A stretch of 64,000 nucleotides of DNA from Escherichia coli (GCF_001677475.2 NZ_CP015229.1), one strand, 5' to 3'. Positions 59,901 through 62,900 are shown, numbered from the stretch's first letter. Numbers: made by a program.

Positions 59901-62900
59901 AAAGAATACGTTGCCCAACCGAGCGTAACTCGCTCGGTCCACTGAACGAAACGCTATTGCCCAGAGAACGCCCTTCCCCCAACCGGTTGATCATCCTCTC
60001 GATATTTTTCACCGGACCAATAATCATCCGCGTGAAAAGCAGTACCATTACCAGACTCACCAGAAATAGCACCAGCGATTGCCAACCAAAATATTGCCCA
60101 CGTTCGGCGATTTCACGCTGAAGTTGCTGCCCACGAGAGAACACCACTGTGCGCGTGGCCTGCACCATTTCGGTATTGGCACTGGCAAAGGCTTCAAGAC
60201 GCGCAGCGGCGGCAGCATCGGGACCACTGTTGTTACACTGAAGTTGAGCCAGATTGTTCAAATCCTGACGCAATGCCTGGTAAAGTTTATCGTCTGGCAG
60301 TACGCCTGCGTGGGCATCGAGCATTTCGCTGTAACGCTTGCGCTGGCTTTGATAAACCTTCGCAAGCGTAGGGTCATCCAGCACGCAATACTGACGGTAG
60401 CTACGCTCCATCTCAAGCGCCGCGTTGGTCATTGCTTCGCTGCGCCGGGCATCGATAAGCGTGGTGCGGTTGACCAGCGCCGCCTGGTCGCTAAGCGCAT
60501 TCAGGCTTTGCCAGGCTTGCCATGCCAGCACCAACAGGGGTAGCAGAATCAGCAAAAATGCCAGCATTACCAGTTGTCGTAATGAGCGGGGAAAAACGGG
60601 CCAGCGTTTCAAGGTGTTACTCTCGTCAGACGCGAATAGCCTGATGCTAACCGAGGGGAAGTTCAGATACAACAAAGCCGGGAATTACCCGGCTTTGTTA
60701 TGGAATAAGGCGGTGCCTAACTCGACGTTTCGCCCGATGGTTGATATAGCTACGCTGATATCAGAAGTTGGACGGCAGGCACCTTGTTGTGCGTCATTCG
60801 AATTTTATGTAGCACGTCCCGAAGGGGCTGACATAAGTCGGTGAATGAGCCACTGCTTACTATTATGCAGTAACTGTGCCAATAAAGAAAATAGTTTGGT
60901 AACGTACTGATTATACGTTGTTTTGAGGGATTTATGGCTTCTTCGCTATTTGAATGTAAATCAGCCACTGTGTCGCTAAAAAGAGACAACTTAAGATAAA
61001 CTTATTAGATTACAATAAAATCAATCATTTAAGTGTCGCCAGAAAGCGACACGGTAAACCACCCATTGTCGTGATTTACAGACACAAAAAAGCTCCCTGA
61101 GTTGGGAGCTTATAATAGCGGTTGGTATTTAATGCCGGATGCGGCGTGAATGCCTCATCCGGGCTGCAAAACCAATGGGCTGACGACTTACCCCAACTGC
61201 TTACGTGCATTGCGGAAAATGCGCATCCATGGGCCATCCTCGCCCCAGTTTTCCGGATGCCAGGAGTTGCTGACAGTACGGAAAACACGTTCCGGGTGCG
61301 GCATCATAATGGTGACTCGACCGCTTTCAGTCGTGACCGCCGTAATACCGTTCGGAGAACCGTTCGGGTTAGCCGGGTAGGTTTCAGTGACTTTGCCGAA
61401 GTTATCGACATAGCGCAGTGCCACCAGCCCTTTGCTTTCCAGTGCCGCCAGATGCGCCGCATCACGCACTTCCACGCGCCCTTCACCATGAGAGACAGCA
61501 ATCGGCATTTGCGAGCCCACCATCCCCTGCAACAGCAGCGACGGGCTTTGGGTCACTTCAACCAGGCTGAAACGCGCTTCAAAGCGATCGGAGGTATTGC
61601 GCACAAAACGTGGCCACAACTCACTACCTGGGATCAGTTCACGCAGATTAGACATCATCTGGCAACCGTTACATACCCCCAGCGCCAGCGTTTGCGAACG
61701 GTGGAAGAAGGTTGCAAACTCATCGCGTACACGGTCATTGAACAGGATAGACTTCGCCCAACCTTCACCGGCACCCAGCACATCACCGTAGGAGAAACCA
61801 CCGCACGCGACCAGGGCGTGGAAATCCTCCAGTCCCGTGCGTCCAGTCAGCAGGTCGCTCATATGCACGTCGATAGCATCAAAGCCCGCACGGTGGAAAG
61901 CTGCCGCCATTTCAACATGCGAGTTCACGCCCTGCTCACGCAGTACGGCAACTTTCGGACGTGCGCCAGTGGCAATATACGGTGCTGCCACATCTTCGTT
62001 GATATCGAACGACAGTTTTACATTCAGGCCCGGATCGGCGTCGTTAGATTTCGCCTGATGCTCCTGATCGGCACACTCCGGGTTGTCACGCAGGCGCTGC
62101 ATCTGCCAGGTAGTTTCTGCCCACCAGACACGCAACGTAGTGCGGCTTTCGCTGAATACAGTCTGCCCGTTGGCGGTAATCACAAAACGGTCACCGGAAA
62201 CCGCCTGGCCAACATAATGGACGCAATCAGCAAGCCCATGCTTTGCCAGTACCGCTTCAACTGCTTCACGGTCAGCGGCTCGAACCTGAATCACCGCCCC
62301 CAGTTCTTCGTTAAACAGCGCCGCCAGGCGATCGTCACCCAGTGTGGCGATATTCGCTTCAATGCCGCAATGACCGGCAAACGCCATTTCCGCCAGCGTT
62401 ACCAGCAGGCCGCCATCAGAGCGGTCGTGATACGCCAGCAGCTTACGCTGTGCAACCAGCGCCTGAATCGCGTCATAGAAGCCTTTCAGTTGCGCGACGT
62501 CGCGTACATCTGCCGGTTTGTCGCCAAGCTGACGATAAACCTGCGCCAGCGCCGTTGCGCCCAGCGCGTTATTGCCTTTGCCCAAATCAATCAGCAGCAG
62601 TGCGTTATCTTCGGTAGAAAGCTGCGGCGTGATGGTGTGACGTACATCTTCCACGCGGGCAAATGCGGAAATCACCAGCGACAGCGGCGACGTCATTTCG
62701 CGCTCTTCGTTACCTTCCTGCCAGCGGGTTTTCATCGACATAGAGTCTTTACCCACCGGGATCGTCAGGCCCAGCGCCGGACAAAGCTCTTCGCCCACAG
62801 CTTTAACGGCTTCATACAGGCCCGCATCTTCGCCTGGATGACCTGCCGCTGCCATCCAGTTCGCGGAAAGTTTAATGCGTTTGATATCGCCAATCTGTGT

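What the first reader, a model, noticed from the sequence alone, without database searches (positions are those of the whole stretch)
60613..61187. glmY sRNA locus with sigma54 promoter and three GlrR sites, not captured by the ORF track
The purL-glrK spacer encodes GlmY on the minus strand, with an overlapping sigma54/sigma70 promoter and three TGTC-N10-GACA sites upstream, directly ahead of the glrK-qseG-glrR operon that encodes its own activator. ORF-track entries here (60750..60989 minus, and part of the 59185..60675 extension) are therefore non-coding. This is known biology, noted because an ORF-only annotation would miss it.
Basis: partly seen in the sequence, partly recalled or inferred. 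Interest (0 to 1): 0.3.

Follow-up and report, generated by a model that had tools for sequence, protein, structure and literature searches.

The report
glmY small RNA gene, correctly identified

Summary
Confirmed, and already known. The interval 60613..61187 is exactly the purL–glrK intergenic spacer. Rfam's GlmY model (RF00128) matches 60707..60854 on the minus strand at 147 bits (gathering score 33, E 1e-33). By alignment to the curated K-12 record, the 184-nt gene is 60671..60854 (-), 183/184 identical to K-12 glmY.

Every promoter element described for E. coli glmY is present and unchanged from K-12:
- the sigma54 -24/-12 element TGGCACagttaCTGCA (60881..60866)
- the overlapping sigma70 -10 CATAAT (60867..60862)
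- three TGTC-N10-GACA GlrR sites (60971-88, 61034-51, 61067-84); these are 3 of only 4 in the 64 kb
- two IHF-consensus sites flanking the proximal GlrR site

Downstream lie glrK, qseG and glrR, each about 98-99.5% identical to K-12 at the protein level.

Thirteen GlmY loci from about ten other genera share the layout. They give compensatory base-pair changes that support the RNA fold. They also show that the 79-codon ORF (60750..60989) is not conserved as a reading frame.

Nothing novel was found. Automatic RefSeq annotation of the closest genome examined does leave glmY out.

The parts
60671..60854 (-). glmY gene, 184-nt primary transcript (+1 = 60854)
   Evidence: Coordinates transferred from K-12 b4441 by alignment A1. 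183/184 nt identical to K-12. MFE -64.2 kcal/mol, z = -5.5 against shuffles.
60707..60854 (-). GlmY core of 148 nt, the same length as the processed active form (two stem-loop domains)
   Evidence: Rfam RF00128 at 147.1 bits, E 1e-33. The 148-nt processed form is described in PMC4152352. Covariation: 7 of 36 pairs show compensatory changes; 97.8% of cells pair, against 26-40% when partners are slid.
60672..60699 (-). GlmY intrinsic terminator hairpin (AACAAAGCCGGG-uaau-CCCGGCUUUGUU)
   Evidence: 12-bp stem in the MFE fold. Identical to K-12. The consensus terminator scan misses it because the U-tract pairs with an upstream A-tract.
60866..60881 (-). sigma54 -24/-12 promoter element TGGCACagttaCTGCA
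   Evidence: unique in the window in its strict form. The 17-mer TTGGCACAGTTACTGCA is identical to the K-12 ChIP-seq sigma54 site at glmY (PMC4591121). Conserved at about -27 in 13 other genomes.
60862..60867 (-). sigma70 -10 hexamer CATAAT, overlapping the -12 element
   Evidence: Read from the sequence. Named as the characterised -10 in PMC3045617. Present at -13..-8 in the Escherichia, Citrobacter, Enterobacter, Pluralibacter and Acerihabitans loci, absent in Yersinia, Photorhabdus and Pantoea.
60900..60912 (-). promoter-proximal IHF-consensus site AATCAGTACGTTA (-58..-46)
   Evidence: Exact WATCARNNNNTTR match. IHF is required for the sigma54 promoter, and two sites flank ABS3, according to PMC3045617.
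60971..60988 (.). GlrR/QseF binding site ABS3 (proximal), TGTC-N10-GACA
   Evidence: Identical to K-12. Conserved position in other genera.
61019..61031 (+). distal IHF-consensus site AATCAATCATTTA
   Evidence: The two differences from K-12 fall in the degenerate NNNN positions.
61034..61051 (.). GlrR/QseF binding site ABS2
   Evidence: Lies 63 bp upstream of ABS3 in most of the genera examined.
61067..61084 (.). GlrR/QseF binding site ABS1 (distal)
   Evidence: Lies 33 bp upstream of ABS2. Overlaps the T-tail of the purL terminator by 5 nt.
61090..61111 (-). purL intrinsic terminator hairpin followed by TTTTGTGTCT
   Evidence: Terminator scan: 8-bp stem with 5 G-C pairs.
61134..61162 (.). REP (repetitive extragenic palindrome) element; K-12 lacks 18 bp of it
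   Evidence: 4 copies in the window with up to 3 mismatches, 0 expected. The 18-bp indel against K-12 accounts for the 575-bp versus 557-bp spacer length.
60637..60672 (-). qseEGF (glrK) own sigma70 promoter region. Inferred TSS about 60637; candidate -35 TTGTAT 60672..60667 and -10 TAGCAT 60649..60644
   Evidence: [quoted passage not shown] Window 60610..60706 is 100% identical to K-12. The hexamer assignments are my inference.
59185..60612 (-). glrK/qseE sensor kinase CDS (475 aa, TTG start)
   Evidence: 472/475 aa identical to K-12 GlrK, with the same TTG start. RefSeq product name QseE/GlrK.
58307..59020 (-). qseG lipoprotein CDS (237 aa)
   Evidence: NCBIfam NF007997 QseG equivalog, 359 bits against a cut-off of 234. 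232/237 aa identical to K-12.
56983..58317 (-). glrR/qseF CDS, the sigma54 enhancer-binding response regulator (444 aa, D56 present)
   Evidence: NCBIfam NF011695 GlrR equivalog, 982.5 bits against a cut-off of 763. 442/444 aa identical to K-12.
61188..64000 (-). purL 3' part (the CDS runs off the window end)
   Evidence: NCBIfam NF003672, 1667 bits, aligned to profile positions 364-1289.

Best explanation
The spacer encodes GlmY, the decoy small RNA of the enterobacterial GlmY/GlmZ/RapZ circuit that keeps glucosamine-6-phosphate (GlcN6P) levels steady.

Transcription starts at 60854 on the minus strand, from a sigma54 promoter and a weaker, exactly overlapping sigma70 promoter. The sigma54 promoter is fired by phosphorylated GlrR (QseF). 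GlrR binds three TGTC-N10-GACA sites 117-230 bp upstream, and IHF-induced DNA bending brings them to the promoter.

The 184-nt transcript ends at a hairpin terminator and is trimmed to about 148 nt. When GlcN6P is scarce, this RNA sequesters the RNase E adaptor RapZ. The homologous sRNA GlmZ then escapes cleavage and activates glmS translation.

The kinase GlrK, the lipoprotein QseG and GlrR are encoded immediately downstream, with their own weak sigma70 promoter.

Shown here: the sequence elements, the RNA family match, structure covariation, synteny and near-identity to K-12. Inferred from K-12 experiments in the literature: sigma-factor dependence, GlrR and IHF binding, 3' processing and the RapZ decoy function.
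For: RNA and gene:
- Rfam GlmY hit at 147 bits.
- 183/184 nt identical to curated K-12 glmY, at the same offset from glrK.
- Stable fold, z = -5.5.
- Compensatory changes in 7 of 36 pairs across 15 sequences from about 10 genera; no shuffle or slid control reaches the observed values.

Control region:
- Three clustered GlrR palindromes.
- A unique strict -24/-12 element at the right distance from +1, identical to the K-12 ChIP-seq sigma54 site.
- CATAAT overlapping the -12 element.
- Two exact IHF-consensus sites flanking ABS3.
- The same layout in 13 other genomes, with the palindromes 33 and 63 bp apart in most.
- None of the 18 substitutions against K-12 in the 333 bp upstream of +1 touches a specified position of any of these elements.

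Neighbouring genes:
- GlrR equivalog at 982 bits and QseG equivalog at 359 bits.
- GlrK 472/475 aa identical to K-12.
- purL-glmY-glrK synteny in every locus whose flanks are long enough to show it.

Mechanism comes from PMC3045617, PMC4152352, PMC7073468 and PMC6075780.
Against: There is no expression or binding data for this particular strain. The window comes from a lineage at most 97.5% identical to any complete E. coli genome over 24 kb, so transferring K-12 function is an inference, though a very safe one given that all the elements are invariant. The sigma70 -35 is weak, and the generic sigma70 scan does not call this promoter. A direct test that GlmY lacks glmS complementarity was not discriminating.
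Confidence: 0.97

Rival explanations
1. The 79-codon ORF 60750..60989 (-) is a real small protein gene, and the RNA match is incidental or the locus is dual-function.
For: The frame is open in the window and in K-12 with the same length. tblastn finds similarity to aa 33-79 in Escherichia, Citrobacter, Enterobacter and Pluralibacter.
Against: - The similarity covers only the part translated from the conserved promoter and RNA.
- The start codon and first 32 codons are not conserved.
- The frame is closed by stops at +24 to +78 in Pantoea, Acerihabitans, Yersinia and Photorhabdus.
- There is no NCBIfam match.
- Window against K-12 shows 4 synonymous and 4 non-synonymous changes, so no sign of purifying selection.
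- The ORF start lies at -135, upstream of the mapped TSS and inside GlrR site ABS3, downstream of the purL terminator. No known transcript carries it.
Confidence: 0.01
2. The RNA is the homologue GlmZ (or an undifferentiated GlmY/GlmZ-clan member) rather than GlmY.
For: GlmY and GlmZ belong to one Rfam clan and share sequence: 122 identical columns out of 199 against K-12 GlmZ.
Against: After clan competition the GlmY model is the one retained, at 147 bits. The RNA is 183/184 identical to K-12 GlmY. The purL-glrK synteny is specific to glmY, whereas glmZ lies between aslA and hemY (PMC3045617). E. coli glmZ has a sigma70-only promoter without GlrR sites.
Confidence: 0.01
3. glmY here is mainly the 5' leader of a glmY-glrK-qseG-glrR operon transcript, as reported for Proteus mirabilis, so GlrR autoregulates its own operon by read-through.
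For: In P. mirabilis, glmY-qseE-qseG-qseF are reported to form an operon (abstract of PMC8745638). Only 58 bp separate the glmY 3' end from glrK. The terminator's U-tract is interrupted (UUUGUUGU).
Against: In K-12, reporter fusions and RT-PCR show virtually no read-through from glmY into qseE and no autoregulation, and the operon has its own promoter with a TSS 25 bp upstream of the start codon (PMC6075780). Window 60610..60706 is 100% identical to K-12, and the terminator stem is 12 bp.
Confidence: 0.1

Closest known systems
E. coli K-12 glmY (b4441; formerly sroF/tke1), Rfam RF00128
   Same: - 183/184 nt identical.
- Same +1, terminator and 58-bp distance to glrK.
- Identical sigma54 -24/-12 element, CATAAT -10 and three GlrR sites.
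- Both IHF consensus matches retained.
- Same flanking genes.
   Different: - U instead of A at RNA position 54, in an unpaired internal region. U is what 8 of the 13 other loci have there.
- G instead of C at -2.
- 16 further substitutions in the upstream spacer DNA, none at a specified position of a control element.
- A complete REP element next to purL, where K-12 has an 18-bp shorter remnant.
GlmZ (SraJ), Rfam RF00083
   Same: Homologous sRNA of the same clan with a similar two-domain fold. Both bind RapZ (literature).
   Different: GlmZ lies at a different locus (aslA-hemY) and has a sigma70-only promoter in Escherichia. It carries the glmS-pairing linker and acts by base-pairing, whereas GlmY acts as a protein decoy (PMC4152352, PMC3045617).
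Yersinia/Photorhabdus-type glmY promoters (Goepel et al. 2011, group I)
   Same: Sigma54 -24/-12 element, three GlrR sites with similar spacing, and the same synteny.
   Different: Those lack the overlapping sigma70 -10 (CATTAT or ATTAAG instead of CATAAT). The window belongs to the Escherichia-type group with dual promoters.

Membership tests
GlmY sRNA (Rfam RF00128) | Covariance-model score above the gathering threshold, over the full model | tested here: met
   147.1 bits against 33, model positions 1-163/163, E 1e-33.
GlmY sRNA (Rfam RF00128) | Scores better as GlmY than as the clan relative GlmZ | tested here: met
   cmscan keeps only the best clan member, and RF00128 is the one reported. 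183/184 identity to K-12 GlmY against 122 of 199 columns to GlmZ.
GlmY sRNA (Rfam RF00128) | Conserved synteny: downstream of purL and immediately upstream of glrK-qseG-glrR | tested here: met
   PMC3045617 states that glmY is always upstream of glrK-yfhG-glrR.
GlmY sRNA (Rfam RF00128) | Two stem-loop domains supported by covariation, plus a 3' terminator hairpin | tested here: met
   The MFE fold matches the Rfam consensus. 7 of 36 pairs are compensatory, and 0 of 500 shuffles reach the observed values.
GlmY sRNA (Rfam RF00128) | No complementarity to the glmS leader (acts as a decoy, not by base-pairing) | tested here: inconclusive
   Sliding-window duplex energies against the K-12 glmS leader did not separate GlmZ, GlmY and shuffled controls. 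The claim rests on PMC4152352.
GlmY sRNA (Rfam RF00128) | 3' processing from 184 to about 148 nt, and binding and sequestration of RapZ | not testable with these tools
   Literature only (PMC4152352, PMC7073468). The sequence is 183/184 identical to the tested K-12 RNA.
GlrR/QseF-activated sigma54 promoter | GG/GC -24/-12 element at the correct distance from +1 | tested here: met
   TGGCACagttaCTGCA at 60881..60866, with GG at -26/-25 and GC at -14/-13. Identical to the K-12 ChIP-seq site.
GlrR/QseF-activated sigma54 promoter | Three TGTC-N10-GACA upstream activating sites more than 100 bp upstream | tested here: met
   Sites start at -134, -197 and -230. They are 3 of the 4 matches in 64 kb, against 0.83 expected.
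GlrR/QseF-activated sigma54 promoter | IHF site(s) between or around the UAS and the promoter | tested here: met
   Exact WATCARNNNNTTR matches at 60900-60912 and 61019-61031. This is consensus only; binding was not tested.
GlrR/QseF-activated sigma54 promoter | Cognate enhancer-binding protein present, with its phospho-acceptor Asp | tested here: met
   GlrR equivalog NF011695 at 982.5 bits against a cut-off of 763. 442/444 aa identical to K-12, D56 present.
GlrR/QseF-activated sigma54 promoter | Transcription actually depends on sigma54, GlrR and IHF | not testable with these tools
   Shown for K-12 in PMC3045617 and PMC7073468. Not tested for this strain.
Overlapping sigma70 promoter (Escherichia-type glmY) | CATAAT -10 overlapping the -12 element and using the same +1 | tested here: met
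   CATAAT at 60867..60862, i.e. -13..-8.
Overlapping sigma70 promoter (Escherichia-type glmY) | A recognisable -35 hexamer at 16-18 bp spacing | tested here: inconclusive
   Only T-rich weak candidates (TTTCTT and similar), and the generic scan does not call the promoter. The literature calls it a weak promoter with 'putative -35 sequences'.

The most novel reading that the evidence does not exclude
The 79-codon frame spanning the glmY promoter and the 5' half of the RNA, which is open only in some close relatives of Escherichia, might be translated from rare purL read-through transcripts. That would make the locus dual-function in this clade. Nothing positive supports this. It is simply not strictly excluded without ribosome-profiling data.
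Probability: 0.01. Interest if true: 0.4.

Novelty: already known. Interest (0 to 1): 0.07.

Why it matters
As biology this adds nothing new. glmY, its dual sigma54/sigma70 promoter, the GlrR and IHF sites and the RapZ decoy mechanism have been characterised in E. coli K-12 since 2007-2020.

The practical point is about annotation. ORF-based tracks put two spurious coding calls on this spacer. The PGAP-annotated RefSeq record examined here lists nothing between qseE and purL, and none of the 12 sampled records names glmY under the match, so the sRNA is easily missed.

The locus is also a useful positive control for the scan. A reader working from raw sequence recovered a non-coding gene and its regulatory sites at exact coordinates.

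Tried and rejected
1. The genome-contig scan with GCTCATTCA-N{30,60}-CGAATGA was too unspecific. 14 loci were Enterobacterales and 13 of those carried GlmY. That was enough for comparison but is not a census.

2. RNA duplex prediction of GlmY or GlmZ against the K-12 glmS leader. Full-length duplexfold is meaningless. Sliding 26-nt windows recover the known GlmZ pairing region (nt 145-170, -19.2 kcal/mol), but shuffled sRNAs score as well (mean about -21). So the absence of pairing in GlmY could not be shown this way.

3. The consensus promoter/terminator scan called neither the glmY sigma70 promoter (weak -35) nor the GlmY terminator, whose U-tract is absorbed into the stem. It did find the purL terminator.

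4. The loose sigma54 pattern with one mismatch is not enriched over chance in 64 kb. The significance of this site comes from its position, its strict form and its identity to the ChIP-seq site, not from the pattern count.

5. I considered and rejected three alternatives: a protein-coding reading of the 79-aa ORF, GlmZ identity, and a decayed or non-functional copy (all elements are invariant against K-12).

6. The cross-genus frame test was already decisive.

Full report
**Observation**

The interval 60613..61187 is exactly the non-coding spacer between the purL stop codon (TAA, 61190..61188) and the glrK start codon (TTG, 60612..60610), both on the minus strand.

- Rfam's GlmY model RF00128 matches 60707..60854 (-) over its full length at 147.1 bits (gathering score 33, E 1e-33). 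It is the only Rfam hit in the last 8 kb of the window.
- Exact TGTC-N10-GACA occurs four times in the 64-kb window, against 0.83 expected. Three of the four lie within 114 bp, at 60971-60988, 61034-61051 and 61067-61084.
- The -24/-12 element TGGCACagttaCTGCA lies at 60881..60866 (-). With one mismatch allowed the pattern is not rarer than chance (3 found, 3.76 expected). The strict form is unique in the window, and its GG and GC fall at -26/-25 and -14/-13 relative to the RNA 5' end.

**Anchoring to curated annotation**

The locus is present in 5425 of 5426 complete E. coli genomes. The curated K-12 record annotates glmY (b4441, 184 nt) 58 bp upstream of glrK and 315 bp downstream of purL.

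Base-by-base alignment transfers this to window 60671..60854 (-). The gene is 183/184 identical to K-12. The single difference, U54 for A, lies in an unpaired internal region where 8 of the 13 other loci also have U.

The window's spacer is 18 bp longer than K-12's (575 against 557 bp). The difference is entirely within a REP palindrome at 61134-61162, which is complete here and truncated in K-12.

The 333 bp upstream of +1 carry 18 substitutions against K-12. None touches a specified position of the three GlrR sites, the two IHF sites, the -24/-12 element or the -10 hexamer. By my rough estimate these elements cover about 93 of the 333 bp, so avoiding all of them by chance would have a probability of about 0.003.

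- Two exact matches to the IHF consensus WATCARNNNNTTR flank the proximal GlrR site, at 60900-60912 (-) and 61019-61031 (+). This is what Goepel et al. describe for E. coli glmY, where IHF is essential for the sigma54 promoter (PMC3045617).
- CATAAT, the characterised sigma70 -10 that overlaps the -12 element, is at 60867..60862.
- The purL terminator hairpin is at 61111..61090, and its T-tail runs into the distal GlrR site.
- The GlmY terminator is a 12-bp hairpin at 60699..60672.
- In K-12, the 58 bp between glmY and glrK contain the qseEGF operon's own sigma70 promoter, with a TSS 25 bp upstream of the start codon. That corresponds to about 60637 here (PMC6075780). Window 60610-60706 is 100% identical to K-12.

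**Flanking genes**

Downstream on the same strand are:
- glrK/qseE: 475 aa, 472 identical to K-12.
- qseG: NCBIfam equivalog at 359 bits; 232/237 aa identical.
- glrR/qseF: NCBIfam equivalog at 982.5 bits; 442/444 aa identical; phospho-acceptor D56 present.
- glnB.

Upstream is purL, which runs off the window.

**Independent comparative evidence**

A pattern scan of one genome per species returned mostly chance hits. It did include 13 Enterobacterales loci with full-length GlmY matches of 105-163 bits. They come from E. albertii, Citrobacter (2), Enterobacter (2), Pluralibacter, Pantoea (2), Acerihabitans, Yersinia and Photorhabdus (3).

- All loci with long enough flanks show purL-glmY-glrK synteny.
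- All have a TGGCA[CT]-N5-[CT]TGC element ending about 12 nt before +1.
- Most have three GlrR-type palindromes spaced 33 and 63 bp apart. E. albertii and Acerihabitans show only two at one mismatch or fewer.
- CATAAT is found in the Escherichia, Citrobacter, Enterobacter, Pluralibacter and Acerihabitans loci, and not in Yersinia, Photorhabdus or Pantoea. This broadly reproduces the published grouping, which covers the first three genera.
- On an alignment of the 15 RNAs, RNAalifold recovers the Rfam fold. Seven of 36 pairs show compensatory double changes, and 97.8% of cells are paired against 26-40% when partners are slid by 1-3 columns. No shuffle out of 500 reaches the observed covariation.

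**The ORF-track entries**

The 79-aa ORF (60750..60989, -) starts inside the proximal GlrR site at -135 and ends at +105.

- The frame is open in K-12 as well. It is shortened in E. albertii and closed by stops at +24 to +78 in Pantoea, Acerihabitans, Yersinia and Photorhabdus.
- tblastn similarity is confined to the part translated from the conserved promoter and RNA (aa 33-79).
- It has no NCBIfam match.
- Window against K-12 shows 4 synonymous and 4 non-synonymous differences.

It is therefore a chance frame over conserved non-coding DNA. The 496-aa ORF 59185..60675 is glrK plus 21 codons upstream of the curated TTG start, and the extension crosses the glrK promoter and leader.

**Mechanism**

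This section rests on experiments in K-12 and is inferred here from near-identity. GlcN6P-free RapZ stimulates QseE/GlrK autophosphorylation. GlrR~P binds the three upstream sites and, with IHF, activates the sigma54 promoter. The weaker overlapping sigma70 promoter gives basal expression and is partly occluded by sigma54 binding.

The 184-nt transcript is processed to a 148-nt form that sequesters RapZ. This protects GlmZ from RNase E, so GlmZ can activate glmS translation. GlmY binding also stops RapZ from stimulating QseE, which closes a negative feedback loop (PMC3045617, PMC4152352, PMC7073468, PMC6075780). The K-12 sigma54 ChIP-seq motif instance at glmY, TTGGCACAGTTACTGCA, is identical to the window sequence (PMC4591121).

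**What did not work**

- Duplex-energy comparison of GlmY and GlmZ with the glmS leader was not discriminating. The absence of glmS pairing therefore rests on the literature.
- The generic promoter/terminator scan missed the glmY sigma70 promoter and the GlmY terminator.

**Verdict**

The locus is a near-identical orthologue of a thoroughly characterised system: already known, of low interest, with no sign of anything unusual.

There are two by-products. Over 24 kb the window is at most 97.5% identical to any of 5426 complete E. coli genomes, so it comes from an under-sampled Escherichia lineage.

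Noticed in passing
window 40000-64000: Over 24 kb the best identity to any of 5426 complete E. coli genomes is only 97.5% and none reaches 99%, with the same gene order. The source is therefore an Escherichia lineage poorly represented among complete genomes, possibly a divergent phylogroup or cryptic clade. The glmY spacer plus its flanks (1 kb) is better conserved, at 99.0% to strain Combat11I9.
   Followed up: partly
window 61134-61162; also 24858-24886, 32139-32167, 43424-43452: REP (repetitive extragenic palindrome) copies. The one after purL is complete here and in strain Combat11I9, but lacks 18 bp in K-12. 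Both length variants occur among complete E. coli genomes, with matches spanning about 1001 or about 982 bp.
   Followed up: partly
L002 (NZ_CP021726.1) 4714-5288, and the feature lists: The PGAP-annotated RefSeq record of strain Combat11I9 has no feature between qseE and purL. None of the 12 sampled records names glmY under the match. The curated K-12 record has it as b4441.
   Followed up: partly
window 23693-23978 (+), 31234-31343 (-), 9450-9541 (-): Other Rfam matches above gathering score in the window: ryfA sRNA (263.7 bits), the iscRS stability element (118.8 bits) and sroE sRNA (116.6 bits).
   Followed up: no
window 22603-22620 (+): A fourth, isolated TGTC-N10-GACA match (TGTCATCCACCATCGACA) far from glmY. 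It is single, with no partner sites or -24/-12 element noted, so it is probably chance.
   Followed up: no
L029 (E. albertii) about 9725-9952: The E. albertii glmY promoter has TGGCAT at -24. Only two GlrR-type palindromes are found at one mismatch or fewer, both ending GACG, and the proximal site is not detected at that stringency. This is consistent with the published remark that ABS1 and ABS3 deviate in some species.
   Followed up: no
L021 (Citrobacter werkmanii) 6774-8525: In C. werkmanii one sense frame stays open from -78 through the whole of glmY into glrK (583 codons). A mechanical ORF list there would swallow the sRNA gene into an extended glrK ORF. This is a more extreme version of the 21-codon extension seen in the window.
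   Followed up: no
window 60425-60844 (+): A 139-aa ORF antisense to the glrK 5' end, the glrK leader and most of glmY. In K-12 the corresponding ORF is only 76 aa, so it is not conserved in length and is presumably spurious.
   Followed up: no
L046 (Klebsiella pneumoniae MAG contig): The search pattern matched at 1216-1282, but Rfam finds no GlmY on this contig, only a tRNA. It is probably a chance pattern hit.
   Followed up: no
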